Part shown: piece after piece, positions 61 through 43,029 of the stretch | Position numbering within the stretch: position 1 is the first letter of the stretch | Layout of the letters: each line of letters begins with the position of its first letter | Sequence record: NC_048192.1 | Reading direction: 5' to 3' (one strand) | Length of the DNA stretch: 43,029 bases | From: Staphylococcus phage vB_SpsS_QT1 | Position numbers and translations under genes: made by a program | Notes under the pieces: model-generated | Told to the model about the DNA's origin: nothing | Databases searched by the model: none | The model's input: only the letters and a program-made list of their open reading frames with translations

Positions 61-408
61 ATGGAAAATGTAACTAAATTAAATAGTGAACAACTGAAGA
101 CCATAGACAAAACTCGCGACTGGCTGATGCAGCAAGTGGATGTTGAAAACTTAGTAGAGGTCGAAAAGGTAGATAGATACTGCAATCTATTAAAAATATT
201 CTATTATCTGGATAATGATGTTTATGCTAGAGGTCCAGTGATTGAAGTAGGCAATGGCAAGCAAGGGTTTATCAAGCCTAATCCTGCACTTGCAGAAAAG
301 AATAAGATTAACGGCTCACTGCTTGCGATTGAAAAATCATTCAAACTTGATAAGAAGTTAGAGCAACGTCGTTTAGAAAAGGCGCAAAAAGGACCTGAAT
401 TAACATGA
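61..408 (+). CDS. terS: Terminase small subunit, P27-like
   Basis: 115-aa ORF with AAAGGAGG RBS at 46-53, immediately upstream of and overlapping TerL (ATGA); HNH endonuclease lies just upstream across the genome ends, the arrangement typical of HNH-dependent cos packaging. Confidence 0.55.
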   Translation: MENVTKLNSEQLKTIDKTRDWLMQQVDVENLVEVEKVDRYCNLLKIFYYLDNDVYARGPVIEVGNGKQGFIKPNPALAEKNKINGSLLAIEKSFKLDKKLEQRRLEKAQKGPELT

Positions 409-2066
409 AGACCCCAAAATACGTGACGCAATACATTGACAAGATTAAAACAGGTAAGATCATTGTTAATAAGGAGCGTCAAAATCTAGTTGAGTACTTA
501 GAAAAGTACATATTAAATCGAGACGATCTGTATTTTGATTTTCAAAAGATTGAGGATTATGTCGGATTTAGTGAAAAGTGGTTTTTTGAGATTCAAGATT
601 TTCAAAAGTTTATAACTTGTTTTGTATTTTTATACGAAGCAGACACGTTGACACCTTATTTCTCAGAATTTTTTATATCGATGGCTCGGGGTGGCGGTAA
701 AAACGGGTATATCAGCACGTTAGGTGCTTTCTTTTTAACGCCCTTGCATGGCATACCTAAATATAACATGTCGGTCGTTGCGAATAGTGAAAAACAAGCC
801 CAAGTCAGCTTTCAGGAGATATACGACATGATTGAAAGTAATGACTTGTATGTCAGAAAAGATAAGCCTAATAACCCTTTTAACATCAGTAAGGTGCTGA
901 TAGAAGGTATTTCGATGAAAGCGCAGTTTGTGTTTGATACGTCGAACGAAAAGACTAAGGATGGTGCGCGTGAAGGTTGCGTTTTCTTTGACGAGATTCA
1001 CGCCTATGAAAAAGACACGATCATCAATGTTAAACGTAGTGGATTAGGTAAAGTCGCACACCCTCGTACATTTTATATAGGTACTGACGGGCATGTTCGA
1101 GAGGGCTTTTTAGATAAGCTGAAAGAGCGTGCAGCTAATGTTTTAATTGGCGAATCGCCGGAGGATAGGCTTTTTCCGTTCATCTGCAAAATCGACGACA
1201 AAGAAGAGTTGCACGATTTTGACATGTGGCAAAAAGCAAATCCGATGTTTGAAGCGCCGATGAATGATTACGGTCGTCAACTTTTTCAAGAGGTTAAACA
1301 ACAGTATTTGTCGCTTAAGTTTAATCCGTCAGGAAGAACAGAATTCATGACAAAGCGCATGAACTTGCCTGAAACAGATTCTCAAAGCGTAGTAGCGCCT
1401 TGGGATGACATTCTTGCTACTAACCGTGACATGCCGTCACTTGATAACCATGAATGTATTGGAGGGCTTGACTATGCGAGCCTTAAAGACTTTGCAGCAG
1501 TTGGACTTTTATTCAAAGTTGACGATGAGTACATTTGGAAAACACATTCGTTTGCGCGTAAAGCCTTTTTAGATGAATACCAATTGAAACCACCAATACA
1601 TGAGTGGGCTGAAAAGGGATTGTTAACCATTGTAGATGAGCCTACAATATCACCTAAACACATCATTGATTGGTTCCTTGAAGCACAAAAACATTATGGT
1701 CTTAAAAAGGTTATAGCGGATAATTTTCGAATGGATCTACTACGCCCTCTTTTTGAAGAGAACGATATCGATTATGAAGTGGTTAAGAATACGAGGGCTA
1801 TTCAATCGCTACTAGCGCCTCGCGTTGAAGACATGTTTGCACAACAGAACATTATATTTGGCGACAACCCCCTTATGCGTTGGTATACGGGTAATGTGGC
1901 TGTGAAGATTGATAAATACGGTAACAAGACTTACGAGAAAAAAGAACCAGTTCGACGCAAGACGGACGGTTTTCAGGCACTAATACATGCGTTGTATCGT
2001 GCAGATGACTTAAATGGTGCCAGTCTTGACGCTGAGATTGATTTACTTCGTGGCTTGAGATTTTAG
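405..2066 (+). CDS. terL: Terminase large subunit
   Basis: 553-aa ORF in the position following terS; N-terminal ATPase-like and C-terminal nuclease-like regions; size and placement typical. Confidence 0.85.
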   Translation: MKTPKYVTQYIDKIKTGKIIVNKERQNLVEYLEKYILNRDDLYFDFQKIEDYVGFSEKWFFEIQDFQKFITCFVFLYEADTLTPYFSEFFISMARGGGKNGYISTLGAFFLTPLHGIPKYNMSVVANSEKQAQVSFQEIYDMIESNDLYVRKDKPNNPFNISKVLIEGISMKAQFVFDTSNEKTKDGAREGCVFFDEIHAYEKDTIINVKRSGLGKVAHPRTFYIGTDGHVREGFLDKLKERAANVLIGESPEDRLFPFICKIDDKEELHDFDMWQKANPMFEAPMNDYGRQLFQEVKQQYLSLKFNPSGRTEFMTKRMNLPETDSQSVVAPWDDILATNRDMPSLDNHECIGGLDYASLKDFAAVGLLFKVDDEYIWKTHSFARKAFLDEYQLKPPIHEWAEKGLLTIVDEPTISPKHIIDWFLEAQKHYGLKKVIADNFRMDLLRPLFEENDIDYEVVKNTRAIQSLLAPRVEDMFAQQNIIFGDNPLMRWYTGNVAVKIDKYGNKTYEKKEPVRRKTDGFQALIHALYRADDLNGASLDAEIDLLRGLRF

Positions 2067-37509: not shown

Positions 37510-39960
37510 ATGTTAGACAAAGTCACACAACCTAAAAAAATTAAATATGATCGTGATATTCAGTATGCCTTTGCTAGCAGTCGTTTAGCTACGAACTGGA
37601 CTAATCACAATATGGCTTGGTCTGACTTTATGCAAAAGCTTTCTTCAACGGTTCGGACAAAAGAGAGCCTACTCGATTACAACAAAATGTCTAAATCCGA
37701 ACAAGCTAATGTGAAAGACGTTGGTGGGTTCGTTGGGGGCTATCTAAAAGAAGGCAAGCGCAGAGCGGGGCAAGTGATGAACCGCTCCATGCTAACGCTT
37801 GACATTGACTATGCAGCGCAAGATATGGTCGACATGTTATCAATGTTTTACGATTTTGCTTATTGTGTCTATTCAACGCACAAGCATAGAGATGTCAGCC
37901 CTAGATTAAGATTAGTTGTTCCTCTTAAACGCAATGTCAATTCGGACGAATATGAGGCGGTTGGGCGTAAAGTTGCTGATATGGTAGGTATGGACTATTT
38001 TGATGATACGACATACCAGCCTCATCGGCTAATGTACTGGCCATCTACAAGTAATGATGCAGAATTCTTCTTTTCTTATGAGGACTTACCTTTATTAGAT
38101 CCCGATAAAGTTTTAGATGAATATGTAAATTGGACAGATACCCTCGAGTGGCCGACGTCGTCGAGAGAAGAAAGCAAAACAAGACATTTAGCAGACAAGC
38201 AAGGAAACCCAGAAGAAAAACCTGGTATTGTTGGTGCATTTTGTCGCGCGTATTCAATAGAAGAAGCAATTGATACCTTTATACCTGAATTGTATGACCA
38301 CCATAGCAGCAACCGTTACACGTACCATGAAGGCTCAACATCAGGTGGGCTTGTATTATATGAGAATGGCAAATTTGCCTATTCACATCACAATACTGAC
38401 CCCGTGAGTGGGCTATTGGTGAATAGCTTTGACTTAATACGGATTCATTTATATGGTGCGCAAGATGAAGATGTGAAAGCTGATACGCCGATTAACAGAC
38501 TACCAAGTTATAAGGCGATGCAGACCAAAGCTCAAAATGACGAGCGCGTTAAAAAGCAATTGATTAATGACAGGATTTCAAGTGCCGCAGATGATTTTGA
38601 CGAGATTAATACAGGCGATGATGACAGTTGGGACGAAACTCTTGAGATCACTTCAAAAGGCACATTCAAAGCGAGTATACCTAATATAGAAATTATTTTG
38701 CGCAATGATTCTAACTTAAAAGGTAAAATCGCATTTAATGAATTTACCAAACAGATTGAATGTCTAGGTAAAACACCATGGAACAAAGACTTCAAGACAA
38801 GACAATGGCAAGATGGCGATGATAGCGCGTTACGTAGCTACATTGAAAAGATTTATGAGATACACCATTCTGGTAAAACAAAAGATGCCATTATAAGTGT
38901 GGCGCTTCAAAATGCCTATCACCCAGTTAGGGACTATCTTAACAATTTAGAGTGGGACAAAAAGCCAAGATTAGAAACGCTATTCATTAAATATTTAGGC
39001 GTTGAAGATTCAAAAGTTAATCGCACAATTACACGTAAATCATTAACGGCTGGCGTTGCTAGAGTGATGGAACCTGGTTGCAAATTCGACTATATGCTTA
39101 CGTTATATGGCCCTCAAGGCGTCGGTAAATCCGCTATTCTTAAAAAGCTGGGTGGCGGTTGGTTTTCAGATAGTTTAGTTTCGGTGACTGGAAAAGAAGC
39201 GTATGAGGCGTTGCAAGGGGTTTGGATTATGGAAATGGCCGAACTTGCAGCAACACGTAAAGCAGAGGTTGAAGCGATTAAGCACTTCATATCAAAACAA
39301 ATTGACCGCTTCCGTGTCGCGTACGGACATTACATTGAAGATTTTCCACGCCAATGTATTTTTATCGGTACAACAAACAAAGTTGATTTCTTAAGAGATG
39401 AAACGGGAGGTCGTCGTTTTTGGCCTATGACTGTTAATCCTGACAAAGTGGAAGTTAAGTGGTCTAAGTTGACTAAAGACGAAATCAATCAAATTTGGGC
39501 TGAAGCAAAGCACTATTACGAACAAGGTGAAGAACTTTATCTTGATCCTGAACTTGAAGAAGAAATGCGTTCAATACAAAGTAAACATACAGAAGAGTCA
39601 CCGTATTTAGGCATTATCGAGGAGTTTTTAAATACACCTATTCCAAGTAACTGGAATGAAATGTCTATTTCTGAACGACGGGACTTTTATAAGTTTGGTG
39701 ATGACTCAATCAGTGAGCAGAGCAGCAAATTGGTTCAAAGGGATAGAGTGTGTGCTTTAGAAATTTTTATCGAATGCTTTGGAAAAGATAAAGGCGACGG
39801 CAGGGGTTCTATGGAACTTAAAAAAATAACAAATGCTTTAAGACAGTTAAATGATTGGGAAGTTTATGACGGCAATAAAGAAGGCAAACTTAAATTTGGT
39901 AAAGAGTATGGAAAGCAAAAAGCTTATGTTAGGCAGGATCATTTTAATGACTTAATATAA
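37510..39960 (+). CDS. Primase-helicase, VirE / D5-type (N-terminal primase-polymerase-like domain plus SF3-type NTPase)
   Basis: 816 aa; Walker A LYGPQGVGKS; AAAGGGG RBS. Confidence 0.8.
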   Translation: MLDKVTQPKKIKYDRDIQYAFASSRLATNWTNHNMAWSDFMQKLSSTVRTKESLLDYNKMSKSEQANVKDVGGFVGGYLKEGKRRAGQVMNRSMLTLDIDYAAQDMVDMLSMFYDFAYCVYSTHKHRDVSPRLRLVVPLKRNVNSDEYEAVGRKVADMVGMDYFDDTTYQPHRLMYWPSTSNDAEFFFSYEDLPLLDPDKVLDEYVNWTDTLEWPTSSREESKTRHLADKQGNPEEKPGIVGAFCRAYSIEEAIDTFIPELYDHHSSNRYTYHEGSTSGGLVLYENGKFAYSHHNTDPVSGLLVNSFDLIRIHLYGAQDEDVKADTPINRLPSYKAMQTKAQNDERVKKQLINDRISSAADDFDEINTGDDDSWDETLEITSKGTFKASIPNIEIILRNDSNLKGKIAFNEFTKQIECLGKTPWNKDFKTRQWQDGDDSALRSYIEKIYEIHHSGKTKDAIISVALQNAYHPVRDYLNNLEWDKKPRLETLFIKYLGVEDSKVNRTITRKSLTAGVARVMEPGCKFDYMLTLYGPQGVGKSAILKKLGGGWFSDSLVSVTGKEAYEALQGVWIMEMAELAATRKAEVEAIKHFISKQIDRFRVAYGHYIEDFPRQCIFIGTTNKVDFLRDETGGRRFWPMTVNPDKVEVKWSKLTKDEINQIWAEAKHYYEQGEELYLDPELEEEMRSIQSKHTEESPYLGIIEEFLNTPIPSNWNEMSISERRDFYKFGDDSISEQSSKLVQRDRVCALEIFIECFGKDKGDGRGSMELKKITNALRQLNDWEVYDGNKEGKLKFGKEYGKQKAYVRQDHFNDLI

Positions 39961-39980
39961 ATTTTAATGACTTAATATAA
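39941..39980. repeat. Perfect tandem duplication of 20 bp (ATTTTAATGACTTAATATAA x2) spanning the primase stop codon, followed by a partial third copy
   Basis: Read directly. Confidence 0.85.
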
Positions 39981-40009
39981 ATTTAAATGCATAAATATCC
40001 AAAAGATAG

Positions 40010-40299
40010 CGTCCCTTTACTTTAGATTCACCGTGCCTTTTAAATTTAGTAAAGGGACGGTGAGAGTGTAAATTTCTATTGTGTCGTCCCTTGCGTGCCT
40101 TTTGAAAAAACAATAAAGGCACGGTTAAAGGCACGGCACAAATGTAGTCATATCAAAGGTTTGAGTGCTATCGTCCCTTGCGTCCCTTTTATTTTACTAA
40201 ATAGATTAATATTTAATGATAGGGAGTAAGTAGAAGTATAGTTGACCTCTAATAGCGTAATAGTATGAAAAAGTTAAAAATTAAGGCACGCAAGGGACG
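40010..40299. repeat. Iteron-like array: 11 copies of CGTSCCTT(T) in both orientations, including a 17-bp inverted repeat pair (40085-40101 and 40283-40299) bracketing an AT-rich stretch; candidate replication origin
   Basis: Plus-strand copies at 40010, 40032, 40085, 40094, 40172, 40181; minus-strand copies at 40051, 40115, 40127, 40283, 40292. Confidence 0.55.
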
Positions 40300-40337
40300 C
40301 ACATATAAATTATGTATACATTATGCAGGTGGGATAA

Positions 40338-40634
40338 ATGAGAGAATCGAACATTGAAAAGTATTTGGTAAGAGAAGTTAGAAAGAAAAAAGGCTTGTGC
40401 TTGAAGTGGGTTGCACCTGGAACAAAAGGTGTGCCTGATAGAATCGTCATCATGCCAAAAGGAAAAACCTATTATGTTGAGATGAAACAACCAAACGGCC
40501 GAGTAGATCCGTTACAAAAATATATGCACAAGCAATTAGAAGATAGAGGGCATCAAGTATTTACCTTATGGGATAAAAAACAGGTTGATGAGTTTATAGA
40601 AAAGGTAGGTGCAAAAGATGGCAATTCAGTTTAA
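40338..40634 (+). CDS. VRR-NUC domain nuclease
   Basis: 98 aa; GVPDRIVIM...YYVEMKQ fits the PD-(D/E)XK pattern typical of VRR-NUC; precedes SNF2 helicase as usual. Confidence 0.6.
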   Translation: MRESNIEKYLVREVRKKKGLCLKWVAPGTKGVPDRIVIMPKGKTYYVEMKQPNGRVDPLQKYMHKQLEDRGHQVFTLWDKKQVDEFIEKVGAKDGNSV

Positions 40635-41976
40635 GCCACATGTCTACCAAAAGCATTCAATTGATAAAGTAATAGACAATGAGAAGTACGGTCTTTTCTT
40701 AGATATGGGTTTGGGAAAAACGGTATCAACGTTAACAGCATTTAGTGATCTACAATTATTAGATACTGAAAAGATGTTAGTCATAGCACCTTTAAATGTA
40801 GCTAAGGACACGTGGGCGGATGAGATAAATAAGTGGGAGCACTTAAAGCATTTACGTGTATCTAAAGTATTAGGCACACCCAAGCAAAGGCTAGCAGCAC
40901 TTAATAAAGAAGCTGATATCTACGTAACAAATAAAGAAAACACAAAATGGTTATGTGATCAATACAAAAAAGATTGGCCTTTTGACATGGTAGTGATAGA
41001 TGAATTATCAACGTTTAAAAATCCATCAAGTCAAAGGTTTAAAGCAATTAGGAAGAAACTTCCTTTAATGAAAAGGTTTGTTGGTTTAACTGGTACACCT
41101 AGCCCGAACAGCTTACTGGATTTGTGGGCACAGGTCTATTTGATTGATAGAGGTGAAAGGCTAGAAACGTCATTCAGTAGATATCGAGAAAGGTTTTTTA
41201 AACCTACACATCAGATCAGCGATCATGTATTTAATTGGGAACTTAGAGGCGGGTCGGAAGAAAAGATATATGAGCTGATAGAGGACGTATGCTTAAGTAT
41301 GAAAGCCAGTGACTATTTAGATATGCCTGAAAGAATAGATACTGTTCAATCCGTTAACTTATCCAGTAAAGAACGTAAGTTGTATGATGAGCTTGAAAAA
41401 CATTACATCCTAGAATCAGAAGAAGATGGGACAATAGTTGCACAAAGTGGAGCTTCACTAAGTCAAAAGCTTTTACAGTTATCTAACGGTGCCGTTTATA
41501 CAGACGATGAAAGTGTAAGACACTTACACGACCGTAAACTTGATAAGTTGGAAGAAATAATAGAAGAGTCGCAAGGTCAACCGCTTCTTGTATTCTACAA
41601 CTTTAAACATGATAAAGAACGAATAATGGAACGGTTTGATGAAGTTGTCACTTTAGATGACGAAAGCTATAAAGATAGATGGATTGAAGGTAAAGTTAAA
41701 ATATTATTAGCGCATCCTGCAAGCGCAGGGCATGGACTAAACCTACAAAAAGGCGGACATATTATTGTGTGGTTTGGGTTAACTTGGTCTTTAGAATTGT
41801 ATCAGCAAGCCAATGCTAGATTGTACCGACAAGGACAAACACACACAACAATCATACATCACATTATGACAGATAATACAATTGACCAAAAAGTGTATCA
41901 GGCGCTGCAGAATAAAGAGCTTACGCAAGAGGACCTAATGCAGGCTATCAAAGCAAGGATAAAACAGTATGAATAA
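40618..41976 (+). CDS. SNF2-family helicase
   Basis: Start at ATG 40618 (AAGGTAGGTG RBS); Walker A DMGLGKT, DEAH-like VIDELS, motif VI QANARLYRQGQ. Confidence 0.8.
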   Translation: MAIQFKPHVYQKHSIDKVIDNEKYGLFLDMGLGKTVSTLTAFSDLQLLDTEKMLVIAPLNVAKDTWADEINKWEHLKHLRVSKVLGTPKQRLAALNKEADIYVTNKENTKWLCDQYKKDWPFDMVVIDELSTFKNPSSQRFKAIRKKLPLMKRFVGLTGTPSPNSLLDLWAQVYLIDRGERLETSFSRYRERFFKPTHQISDHVFNWELRGGSEEKIYELIEDVCLSMKASDYLDMPERIDTVQSVNLSSKERKLYDELEKHYILESEEDGTIVAQSGASLSQKLLQLSNGAVYTDDESVRHLHDRKLDKLEEIIEESQGQPLLVFYNFKHDKERIMERFDEVVTLDDESYKDRWIEGKVKILLAHPASAGHGLNLQKGGHIIVWFGLTWSLELYQQANARLYRQGQTHTTIIHHIMTDNTIDQKVYQALQNKELTQEDLMQAIKARIKQYE

Positions 41977-41989
41977 TGGAGGGTGTTTG

Positions 41990-42457
41990 ATGTATTCGAA
42001 AGATCAGATTAAAGATATGATATTTAGTTATCATTGGAGAAAGAATGTCCTAGCAGATGAAGGCTATGCATATGACAGTAACAGTGTAGCGCAATACGGT
42101 GTCGATGCAGCAATGCCAAAAGCTAAAGGACAGACCACAGATAAAGTACAAAGATTAGCAACAAACAACTGCGTGCTAAGTAGAATATATGACGAGCACC
42201 TAAAGACAATACAGTTTATCGATACGTATGAGGGACAAATAGACAACGACATGAACTTGAATATATTGATGTTGTTTAAGAAGGGGAAGAAGCCCGTAGA
42301 GATTAGGGAGATTATGAATATCGGTCGTACTAATTTAGATAGTAGAATTAACAGTATTGTCAATGTTTATTATCTTGTGCAGGATAAGCATAATCAACGC
42401 AATCAACACAATCAACACAATCAACACAATCAACACAATCAACACAATCAACACTAA
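41990..42457 (+). CDS. ArpU/RinA-like late-gene transcriptional activator with C-terminal (NQH)n repeat tail
   Basis: Start at ATG 41990 (GGAGGG RBS 6 nt upstream; ORF track uses 41969); PVEIREIMNIGRTNLDSRI resembles a sigma region-4-like HTH; position immediately upstream of the HNH and terS genes. Confidence 0.45.
   Translation: MYSKDQIKDMIFSYHWRKNVLADEGYAYDSNSVAQYGVDAAMPKAKGQTTDKVQRLATNNCVLSRIYDEHLKTIQFIDTYEGQIDNDMNLNILMLFKKGKKPVEIREIMNIGRTNLDSRINSIVNVYYLVQDKHNQRNQHNQHNQHNQHNQHNQH
42393..42446 (+). repeat. In-frame 9-bp tandem repeat, AATCAACGC once then AATCAACAC x5, encoding NQR(NQH)5 at the C-terminus
   Basis: Read directly; the ORF stops immediately after the last unit. Confidence 0.85.
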
Positions 42458-42603
42458 TTTGTAACGTTGTAATGTCTGAGATTATAATAACGTTACGAGT
42501 TCAAAAACATTAAGACAGGGCACATCGCAAATACTATATTATGTTGAAGCACATCGTTAACGCGGTGTGCTTTTTTGTTTGGATTGTTGGAGGTCGGACT
42601 GAA

Positions 42604-42927
42604 ATGAGTAAGTACAGTGATTATATTTATAGGCGGAATGAGAATAGAAAGTTTTATATGCGTGCTAAATGGCGCAAGGTTAGGCATCAAGTGCTTGTAC
42701 GCGATCACTTTGAATGTCTTCACTGCAAAAAAGAAGGAAAGCTTACAATTAATCAGCAACAGTCTCTTGAAGTCGACCACATTTTAGAACTATCGGAACG
42801 TCCAGATTTAGCGTATGACCTGAACAATCTACAAACATTGTGTAAGTATCACCACAATAAAAAGCACGGCAGATTTGAACACAACAAAAAAAGCGGAAAG
42901 AACAAATACCAAGATGAACGATGGTGA
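42604..42927 (+). CDS. HNH endonuclease (packaging-associated)
   Basis: Start at internal ATG 42604 (GGAGG 10 nt upstream); CLHCKKEG...EVDHILELSER...CKYHHNKKHG HNH motif with zinc-ligand pairs; directly upstream of terS across the genome ends. Confidence 0.75.
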   Translation: MSKYSDYIYRRNENRKFYMRAKWRKVRHQVLVRDHFECLHCKKEGKLTINQQQSLEVDHILELSERPDLAYDLNNLQTLCKYHHNKKHGRFEHNKKSGKNKYQDERW

Positions 42928-42944
42928 TAAGAAAAACTTATCAC
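42924..42944. other. Perfect hairpin GTGATAAG-aaaaa-CTTATCAC overlapping the HNH stop codon, near the presumptive cos region
   Basis: Read directly. Confidence 0.5.
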
Positions 42945-43029
42945 TAAAGCTCTAAAATGTTTTGCACATAAGAGGGTTCAATCCCCCCCCGGTCTAAATA
43001 ATCGCTCAACGACAACGTTTGACGGAAAC

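What the first reader, a model, noticed from the sequence alone, without database searches (positions are those of the whole stretch)
42393..42446. In-frame 9-bp tandem repeat gives the putative late activator a C-terminal NQR(NQH)5 tail
AATCAACGC followed by five perfect AATCAACAC units sits at the extreme 3' end of the ArpU/RinA-like gene, with the stop codon immediately after the last unit. Perfect short tandem repeats slip during replication, and a 9-bp unit keeps the reading frame. Tail length is therefore expected to vary between isolates and could tune activity of the late-gene activator. A His-rich tail could also bind metal. A coding microsatellite in a phage late-transcription regulator is not something I recall being described.
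Basis: seen in the sequence. Interest (0 to 1): 0.6.

Follow-up and report, generated by a model that had tools for sequence, protein, structure and literature searches.

The report
Late activator's binding sites, translated
The 9-bp repeat at the end of this phage regulator gene is real and varies in copy number between isolates, but it is most likely the regulator's own DNA-binding-site array in front of the late promoter, an arrangement already known in related phages, with the Asn-Gln-His tail arising because the gene reads through it.

Summary
The array is 42392-42454: 1x AATCAACGC plus 6x AATCAACAC, giving the tail NQR(NQH)6, with the stop at 42455-57.

The gene (41990-42457) is not ArpU or RinA by HMM. 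It is a clear homologue of LtrC, Family IV of the Ltr late-activator superfamily: phi55 ORF34, E 1e-21; PVL/phi13 Ltr, 42% identity.

Copy number varies as predicted. On an identical or near-identical core protein there are 3-10 units in 15 alleles. Flanking DNA is identical in three phages.

The best explanation is at the DNA level:
- In phi55, four 7-nt boxes at 9-bp spacing just after the stop are the tested LtrC sites.
- In phi13, a 7x9-bp array inside the 3' coding end (-107..-42) is required for the late promoter.
- The window's array has the same position, 9-bp period and length (63 bp), and the same distance to a TATAAT (28 nt versus 28 and 29).
- Tail-less homologues carry the array just after their stop.
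- Distant relatives have tripeptide tails of unrelated sequence.

So the tail is probably a translated by-product, and His-metal binding is not a family feature. This is a new member of a known kind. The copy-number polymorphism and the linked change in tail length appear undescribed.

The parts
41990..42457 (+). ltrC-family late transcriptional activator gene (155 aa; an upstream in-frame ATG at 41969 is probably not used)
   Evidence: ORF listing and RBS. 34% identity, E 1e-21 to phi55 ORF34, the LtrC prototype. 42% identity over 98% of its length to PVL orf61 and phi13 Ltr. phrog_1058 covers the core only.
41990..42382 (+). Conserved core (residues 1-131) with a C-terminal helix-turn-helix; homologues without a tail stop exactly here
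   Evidence: Alignments. AF2 model with pLDDT >90 for residues ~80-130. Distant relatives hit GerE, Sigma70_r4 and DUF1492. phiSP15-1, DS12, phiRS7 and phi55 end at the aligned Gln.
42383..42391 (+). Degenerate first unit GATAAGCAT (Asp-Lys-His)
   Evidence: Same 9-bp register. GATAA(A/G)CA(C/T/A) is a recurrent unit type in related arrays.
42392..42454 (+). Array of seven 9-bp units (AATCAACGC, then 6x AATCAACAC). Proposed LtrC box array at about -103..-41 of the late promoter, translated as NQR(NQH)6.
   Evidence: Homologous in position, period and geometry to the tested arrays of phi55 and phi13. 3-10 units in relatives.
42455..42457 (+). Stop codon TAA, lying in the -35 region of the putative late promoter
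   Evidence: TAA directly follows the last unit in nearly all tailed homologues; where the stop is mutated the ORF shifts by only 2 codons (L005, L015).
42459..42488 (+). Putative late promoter: TTGTAA (42459-64), 18 nt, TATAAT (42483-88); predicted TSS near 42495
   Evidence: Best consensus match in the region, 10 of 12. A TATAAT or TATACT sits 24-29 nt after the array end in all 11 representative loci, including phi55 (28) and phi13 (29, where the TATA box and TSS were tested) (PMC13123087).
42456..42501 (.). Inverted repeat bracketing the promoter core (perfect core GTAACGTT...AACGTTAC)
   Evidence: Analogous inverted repeats of different sequence occur in phi13 and other loci. Role unknown.
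42546..42580 (+). Terminator-like hairpin plus T-run between the putative late TSS and the HNH gene
   Evidence: A similar hairpin occurs in phi13, phiSP15-1, DS12 and phiRS7. Role unresolved.
42604..42927 (+). HNH endonuclease gene, first gene downstream of the promoter
   Evidence: Pfam HNH E 1e-9. Same annotation in 2638A and phiSP119-1.
61..2066 (+). terS (61-408) and terL (405-2066): the late/packaging operon continues across the genome ends
   Evidence: Pfam Terminase_4, TerL_ATPase and TerL_nuclease. phiSP119-1 has the order ltr-HNH-terS-terL-portal contiguously.

Best explanation
The 9-bp array is the cis-acting binding-site array (LtrC boxes) of the phage's own late activator.

Proposed mechanism. 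The gene 41990-42457 encodes an LtrC-family protein with a sigma-region-4-like helix-turn-helix. Several copies bind the 7-nt cores (ATCAACA) spaced 9 bp apart, at about -103 to -41. They activate the late promoter immediately downstream (-10 TATAAT at 42483-88). That promoter drives HNH, terS, terL and the rest of the late operon.

Origin of the tail. In this lineage the stop codon lies after the array rather than before it, so the ORF reads through its own operator. The motif has A at every second codon position, so its translation is a polar (Asn-Gln-His/Arg)n tail.

Variation. Replication slippage or unequal recombination changes the unit number. Each such event changes the number of boxes and the tail length together. 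The tail itself is probably a tolerated by-product.

Status of each step.
- Shown here: homology, array anatomy, conserved geometry, polymorphism.
- Shown by others for homologues: the repeats are required (phi55, phi13), and EMSA binding was shown for phi55.
- Inferred: that this protein binds this array, the TSS position, and the neutrality of the tail.
For: (1) Family membership. BLASTP to phi55 LtrC gives 34% identity, E 1e-21, end to end, with phi55 ending at the residue aligned to window Q131. tblastn to PVL orf61 and phi13 Ltr gives 42% identity, E 4e-24. PVL and phi55 are listed as LtrC Family IV in PMC3753634, and phi13 Ltr is assigned there in PMC13123087.

(2) phi55. Directly after the stop come four AAATGAC boxes at 9-bp spacing. 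This fits the paper's four 7-nt repeats whose replacement abolishes activation and whose fragment is shifted by purified LtrC.

(3) phi13. The array is 7 alternating 9-mers (63 bp) inside the 3' coding end, translated as (SSDTSY)n. Deleting -107..-42 abolished the late promoter P23.

(4) The window array is 63 bp. It ends 28 nt before a TATAAT, against 28 nt in phi55 and 29 nt in phi13. The offset is 24-29 nt in all 11 representative loci, and 27-28 nt across the 22 NQH-type haplotypes.

(5) Tail-less homologues (phiSP15-1, DS12, phiRS7) carry 4-6 units with ~9-bp period and a TACACA or TGCACA core immediately after their stop, 24 nt before the -10.

(6) Across 36 distinct 9-mers from 22 haplotypes, positions 2-8 form the conserved core. 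Positions 9 and 1, a dinucleotide spanning a codon boundary, are the least conserved. This is a 7+2 DNA motif.

(7) Among distant family representatives, 9 of 60 have at least 3 tandem tripeptides in the last 30 aa, against 1 of 204 internal windows. The peptides are unrelated (TNQ, STN, TNG, LPN, NRT). L041 has four CAAACGAAC-type units followed by 28 nt and then TATAAT.

(8) The motif dimer occurs nowhere else in the 43-kb genome, as expected for a single late promoter.

(9) Context. The gene sits between the replication genes and HNH-terS-terL.
Against: - There are no binding or expression data for this protein or array.
- The promoter is only a consensus match and the TSS is extrapolated from phi13.
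- The codon-position analysis is not decisive. Second codon positions are the most conserved, and synonymous variants (CAT, AAG, CAG, AAC) occur, so it also fits selection for a polar tail.
- In the NQH-type clade every full-length ORF reads through essentially the whole array in the same frame. That could reflect selection on the peptide, although the unit has no stop in any frame.
- phi55 works with four boxes, so 7-10 perfect units may include functionally surplus copies.
- A terminator-like hairpin lies about 50 nt downstream of the predicted TSS and is unexplained.
- The fold search gave no significant hit.
Confidence: 0.8

Rival explanations
1. The repeat matters mainly as peptide. The length of the (NQH)n tail tunes activator oligomerisation, stability, DNA affinity or metal binding, or helps escape satellite-encoded inhibitors. 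Slippage then generates functional protein variants.
For: - All NQH-type homologues from at least 6 Staphylococcus species keep the array in frame and translated, usually ending in -QH.
- There are 15 tail alleles on one core.
- The tail directly follows the last helix of the DNA-binding domain.
- LtrC is a known target of SaPI PtiA and PtiM (PMC5052747), so a variable surface could be useful.
Against: - Functional family members lack any tail. phi55 LtrC, tested experimentally, ends at the core, as do phiSP15-1, DS12 and phiRS7.
- Tails of other members have unrelated sequences with no His: SSDTSY, TNQ, TNG, LPN, NRT.
- Tail composition follows automatically from a motif with A at every second codon position.
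- The unit is open in all three frames, so read-through needs no selection.
- AF2 confidence falls to ~50 in the tail.
Confidence: 0.13
2. A neutral, selfish microsatellite. The array has no function in DNA or protein and simply expands and contracts by slippage.
For: The units in the window, 2638A and phiSP119-1 are perfect. Copy number changes fast against an invariant background.
Against: - An array with the same period, position and distance to the -10 persists in lineages down to ~34% protein identity.
- Degenerate arrays still keep the 7-nt core.
- Homologous arrays are experimentally required in phi55 and phi13.
- No allele has fewer than 3 perfect units plus 1 degenerate unit.
Confidence: 0.05
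3. An assembly or sequencing artefact, or a mis-called ORF end.
For: Some database homologues are 'partial' proteins that end in the repeat at contig ends (P0118, P0125). This shows that short-read assemblies can break there.
Against: Three independently sequenced complete phage genomes and many prophages carry the array in frame with identical flanks. The arrays are only 27-90 bp long, which is shorter than typical sequencing reads.
Confidence: 0.02

Closest known systems
phi13 Ltr and its P23 late promoter (S. aureus Sa3int phage; PMC13123087, 2026)
   Same: Both are LtrC family, with ~42% identity to the window protein. In both, the array lies inside the 3' end of the activator's coding sequence and is 7 x 9 bp = 63 bp. 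The stop TAA comes directly after it and TATAAT follows at 28-29 nt. The phi13 array is required for late-promoter activity. Its copy number also varies among related phages (3-11 units).
   Different: phi13's units alternate (ACAGTTCGG / ACACATCGT, described in the paper as 18-bp repeats) and encode (SSDTSY)n rather than (NQH)n. The first downstream gene is MazG-like rather than HNH. The paper does not discuss the encoded tail or the copy-number polymorphism: 'C-terminal' occurs 0 times.
phi55 LtrC (ORF34) and its four direct repeats (PMC3753634, 2013)
   Same: This is the prototype of the family, 34% identical with E 1e-21. It has 7-nt boxes at 9-bp spacing starting at the end of the core ORF, with the -10 28 nt after the last box. 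The repeats are required for activation, and purified LtrC shifts the fragment that carries them.
   Different: In phi55 the stop codon precedes the array, so there is no peptide tail. It has four imperfect AAATGAC boxes rather than seven near-perfect ATCAACA boxes.
RinA, ArpU and TP901-1 Alt late activators
   Same: All have the same genomic position and logic: a small activator gene just upstream of the packaging genes that binds 2-4 short direct repeats upstream of the late promoter. For Alt the repeats lie at -76..-32, as cited in PMC13123087.
   Different: These are different sequence families. The window protein gives no Pfam or NCBIfam ArpU or RinA hit.
Bacterial contingency loci (simple-sequence repeats that drive phase variation)
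   Same: Both involve slippage-prone tandem repeats that generate heritable variation between close relatives.
   Different: The 9-bp unit cannot shift the reading frame. Unit changes inside the array leave the spacing between the last box and the -10 unchanged. So there is no ON/OFF switch, and at most a graded effect.

Membership tests
LtrC (Family IV of the Ltr late-activator superfamily, Quiles-Puchalt 2013) | Sequence homology to phi55 ORF34 and PVL orf61 | tested here: met
   BLASTP 34% identity, E 1e-21, full length. tblastn 42% identity, 98% coverage, E 4e-24 to PVL and phi13.
LtrC (Family IV of the Ltr late-activator superfamily, Quiles-Puchalt 2013) | Gene located between the replication module and the packaging genes (HNH/terS/terL) | tested here: met
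   SNF2 helicase upstream, HNH downstream, terS and terL across the genome ends. The order is contiguous in phiSP119-1.
LtrC (Family IV of the Ltr late-activator superfamily, Quiles-Puchalt 2013) | C-terminal helix-turn-helix DNA-binding domain | tested here: inconclusive
   The AF2 model has three short helices at residues 87-130 with pLDDT >90. Distant relatives hit GerE, Sigma70_r4 and DUF1492. However, the window protein itself has no Pfam HTH hit, and the Foldseek search of the PDB found nothing significant.
LtrC (Family IV of the Ltr late-activator superfamily, Quiles-Puchalt 2013) | Short direct repeats at or just past the 3' end of the gene, upstream of the late promoter | tested here: met
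   Seven 9-bp units at 42392-42454, 28 nt before TATAAT, the same geometry as phi55 and phi13.
LtrC (Family IV of the Ltr late-activator superfamily, Quiles-Puchalt 2013) | The protein binds the repeats and is required for late transcription | not testable with these tools
   This needs EMSA, reporter or knockout experiments. Data exist only for the homologues phi55 and phi13.
   No Pfam or NCBIfam hit above threshold. Only phrog_1058, 'unknown function', matches.
Phase-variable contingency locus | Repeat-number change switches expression by frameshift or by altering promoter spacing | tested here: not met
   The unit is 9 bp, so changes stay in frame. All alleles differ by multiples of 3 aa. 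The distance from array end to the -10 is constant.
Phase-variable contingency locus | Repeat number differs between close relatives against an invariant background | tested here: met
   3-10 units in 15 alleles. There are 0 substitutions in 553 flanking nt among three phages.

The most novel reading that the evidence does not exclude
One slippage event changes two things at once: the number of activator boxes in front of the late promoter, and the length of the activator's own C-terminal tail. The locus would then act as a mechanically coupled cis-trans rheostat. It would generate heritable, graded variation in late-gene timing or burst size among otherwise identical (pro)phages. Tail variation might also help evade satellite-encoded LtrC inhibitors of the PtiA/PtiM type. 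This property would be general to LtrC phages, since phi13/PVL-type arrays vary in the same way.
Probability: 0.15. Interest if true: 0.65.

Novelty: new member of a known kind. Interest (0 to 1): 0.4.

Why it matters
The result turns an apparent curiosity, a coding microsatellite in a regulator, into an annotation. It identifies the late activator (LtrC family), its probable operator and the late promoter of the Fibralongavirus-type phages of S. pseudintermedius and S. aureus (2638A group), where the gene is still labelled 'hypothetical'.

It also yields two general observations that I did not find in the searchable literature:
- LtrC operator arrays are copy-number hypervariable. The window clade has 3-10 units, and the phi13/PVL clade has 3-11.
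- Many family members translate their own operator. This gives tripeptide tails whose sequence depends on the DNA motif, a clear case of a cis element overprinted by the 3' end of the gene whose product is proposed to bind it.

If box number affects promoter strength, this would be a simple natural source of variation in lysis timing and in transduction and satellite mobilisation. Practically, the array is a useful typing marker and a place where short-read assemblies break.

Tried and rejected
- Pfam and NCBIfam on the window protein gave no family, so the ArpU/RinA label could not be confirmed directly. Homology to LtrC had to be shown by tblastn and BLASTP instead.
- The Foldseek search of the AF2 model against the PDB found nothing significant; the top hits are mostly small HTH and sigma-r4 domains.
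- Rfam on 42300-43029 found nothing.
- The genome-contig scan returned only one locus, S. nepalensis. IMG/VR and exact-protein look-ups supplied the DNA instead.
- The codon-position conservation test, meant to separate DNA-level from protein-level constraint, was not decisive on its own.
- I could not confirm that the S. carnosus homologue P0018 is the TM300 LtrC (YP_002633590) tested in PMC3753634, so I do not claim experimental data for an NQH-type member.
- Two distant loci (L040, L042) have translated 9-bp units but ambiguous spacing to the -10.
- A role at cos or as a terminase-binding element was considered and dropped. The array is ~575 bp from the genome end, and it matches the tested Ltr boxes in every respect.
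- Metal binding by His was considered and rated unlikely as a selected function, because His is not conserved in homologous tails.

Full report
**1. The observation**

Reading the sequence codon by codon shows AATCAACGC at 42392-42400, followed by six copies of AATCAACAC at 42401-42454. TAA follows at 42455-42457.

The tail is NQR(NQH)6, preceded by a degenerate unit GATAAGCAT (DKH). Tandem Repeats Finder reports period 9, 7.0 copies, 98% matches, score 119, the strongest array in the window. A two-unit pattern with up to 3 mismatches hits six times, all inside the array, against 0.6 expected; none of 100 shuffles reaches six.

The ORF is continuous. Its likely start is ATG 41990, behind a GGAGGG ribosome-binding site, giving 155 aa. 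The same ORF is annotated in phage 2638A and phiSP119-1.

**2. What the gene is**

Pfam and NCBIfam give no ArpU, RinA or other family for the protein. PHROGs places residues 1-133 in phrog_1058, 'unknown function', and that profile stops just before the tail.

tblastn against phage genomes finds 131 records. PVL orf61 and the phi13 'PVL orf61-like' protein match at 42% identity over 98% of the core, E 4e-24. Direct BLASTP to phi55 ORF34 gives 34% identity, E 1e-21, end to end.

phi55 ORF34 and PVL NP_058499 are the founding members of LtrC, Family IV of the Ltr late-activator superfamily (PMC3753634). phi13 Ltr is assigned to the same family (PMC13123087).

The gene lies between an SNF2 helicase gene and HNH-terS-terL-portal. 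The AF2 model is all-helical with a confident C-terminal helix-turn-helix. The tail is modelled only as a low-confidence extension of the last helix. Distant relatives recovered by a profile search hit GerE, Sigma70_r4 and DUF1492, the LtrB family. The PDB fold search was not significant.

The precise family is LtrC, not ArpU or RinA.

**3. Variability**

The window, 2638A and phiSP119-1 have 7, 9 and 10 units. Their 402-nt core and the 151 nt between the stop and HNH show no substitutions.

The protein's own 90% cluster, from S. pseudintermedius prophages, adds alleles with 3, 4, 5, 6, 7, 8, 9 and 10 units. These have different NQR/NQH interspersion patterns, giving 15 distinct tails in all, on a core that is identical or differs at two residues.

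Some database entries are 'partial' proteins that end in the repeat at contig ends, so short-read assemblies sometimes break there.

**4. What the repeat is**

[quoted passage not shown] Replacing the repeats abolishes activation, and purified phi55 LtrC shifts the repeat-containing fragment.

*phi55.* In the phi55 sequence the ORF ends at the Gln aligned with window Q131. The next bases are CGAAAATGA CAAAAATGA CAGAAATGA CGAAAATGA, which is four AAATGAC boxes at 9-bp spacing.

[quoted passage not shown] Read as 9-mers, the phi13 array is seven alternating units, ACAGTTCGG and ACACATCGT. It is 63 bp long, is translated as (SSDTSY)n, ends at the stop codon, and has TATAAT 29 nt downstream.

*The window.* The array is also 63 bp and ends at the stop codon. 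TATAAT lies 28 nt downstream, and this is the best promoter match in the region: TTGTAA, 18 nt, TATAAT at 42459-42488. With a TSS near 42495 the array spans about -103..-41.

*Tail-less homologues.* The 131-aa proteins of phiSP15-1, DS12 and phiRS7 carry 4-6 units with ~9-bp period and a TACACA or TGCACA core directly after their stop, 24 nt before a TATACT or TATAAT.

*Across the family.* In 22 distinct NQH-type haplotypes from S. pseudintermedius, delphini, warneri, haemolyticus/hominis, carnosus and nepalensis, the -10 is always 27-28 nt after the last unit. The same element therefore sits at the same place throughout the family. The only difference is whether the stop codon lies before or after it.

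**5. DNA-level or protein-level constraint?**

Over 36 distinct unit types, positions 2-8 are the conserved part (consensus ATCAACA). Positions 9 and 1, adjacent bases on either side of a codon boundary, are the least conserved. This matches a 7-nt box plus a 2-nt spacer.

On its own the test is not decisive. Second codon positions are the best conserved, and synonymous variants do occur.

Stronger evidence comes from distant relatives. Of 60 representatives at 50% clustering, 9 have at least three tandem tripeptides in their last 30 residues, against 1 of 204 internal windows and 0.4 of 60 for shuffled tails. Their peptides are unrelated: TNQ, STN, TNG, LPN, NRT. One of them (L041) has four CAAACGAAC-type units, then 28 nt, then TATAAT.

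What is conserved is the 9-bp period and the promoter geometry, not the amino acids. Histidine in particular is not conserved. The polar NQH composition follows from a motif with A at all three second codon positions, and the unit has no stop in any frame, so read-through needs no special selection. phi55 LtrC works without a tail.

I conclude that the tail is most likely a tolerated translation product of the operator. A modulating role is not excluded.

**6. Generality**

In the phi13/PVL clade, phages with an identical core protein carry 3, 5, 7 and 11 nine-bp units, or 8 of a variant type. phiPV83, whose core is not identical, carries 6. All are translated, and the -10 stays fixed at 29 nt.

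Copy-number hypervariability with a co-varying tail is therefore a family property, including the member whose array has been tested experimentally. Searches of the paper library for the Ltr literature found only the two papers above. Neither mentions the tail or the polymorphism.

**7. Open points**

- A terminator-like hairpin (42546-42573 plus a T-run) lies about 50 nt downstream of the predicted TSS, just before HNH. phi13 and other relatives have an equivalent. PMC3753634 inferred a terminator between ltr and the terS promoter. How Ltr-dependent transcripts pass it is unexplained.
- An inverted repeat brackets the promoter core in the window and, with different sequences, in several relatives.
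- LtrC is a known target of the SaPI proteins PtiA and PtiM (PMC5052747). This leaves room for a protein-level reason for tail variation, but I have no evidence for one.

**8. Verdict**

The predicted polymorphism is real. The feature is best explained as the LtrC operator array of the late promoter, read through by the activator's own ORF. It is a new member of a known kind and closest to phi13 Ltr/P23. Two modestly new general observations come out of it: hypervariable box number, and translated operators that give motif-determined tripeptide tails.

Noticed in passing
window 42546-42580: A terminator-like hairpin (12-bp stem) plus T-run lies about 50 nt downstream of the predicted late TSS and only ~25 nt before the HNH start. 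Equivalent hairpins occur in phi13 (L004 ~2038), phiSP15-1, DS12 and phiRS7. How activator-dependent transcripts get through is unexplained; possibilities include antitermination, attenuation, or a role purely as the ltr terminator.
   Followed up: partly
window 42456-42473 / 42484-42501: An inverted repeat (perfect core GTAACGTT...AACGTTAC) brackets the -35/-10 core of the putative late promoter. Inverted repeats of different sequence sit at the same place in phi13 (L004 1969-1984 / 2009-2024), L036 and L005, but not in L003. It may be the operator of a second regulator, or a structure in the ltr read-through transcript.
   Followed up: partly
window 42531-42541: A TACTATATTAT box just 5' of the leader hairpin is conserved in the window, phiSP15-1 and phiRS7, although the surrounding sequence differs. 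It overlaps a second, weaker promoter-like match (42512-42540).
   Followed up: no
window 39941-39998, 40114-40136, 40283-40301: There are further tandem repeats: a 20-bp unit ATTTTAATGACTTAATATAA x2.9, a 12-bp unit TAAAGGCACGGT x1.9, and AAGGCACGC x2.1. They lie a few hundred bases upstream of the SNF2 helicase gene and could be replication-origin iterons.
   Followed up: no
L043-L047 and L004 (phi13/PVL-type S. aureus phages): The experimentally characterised phi13-type array is also copy-number polymorphic, with 3, 5, 6, 7, 8 or 11 nine-bp units and tails of 13 to 37 aa. The core protein is identical in all but phiPV83, and the spacing to the -10 is fixed.
   Followed up: yes
L005 (IME1367_01) and L015-L017: Stop-codon shifts occur at the array end. 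In L005, TAA has changed to CAA, which extends the ORF by two codons (QF). In L015, CAA has changed to TAA inside the last unit, which shortens it by two. The exact C-terminus is therefore not strictly conserved.
   Followed up: yes
phage collection record OP712468.1 ('Pseudomonas phage PSV3', 1565 bp): This short record, labelled as a Pseudomonas syringae phage, is ~94% identical to the S. aureus PVL/phi13-type ltr region. It is probably a mislabelled or contaminant sequence.
   Followed up: no
window 40609-41976 versus 2638A: The helicase gene differs from 2638A at 48 of 1368 positions but from phiSP119-1 at only 2. The adjacent ltr core and promoter are identical in all three phages, which suggests a mosaic or recombination boundary near 41976-41990.
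   Followed up: no
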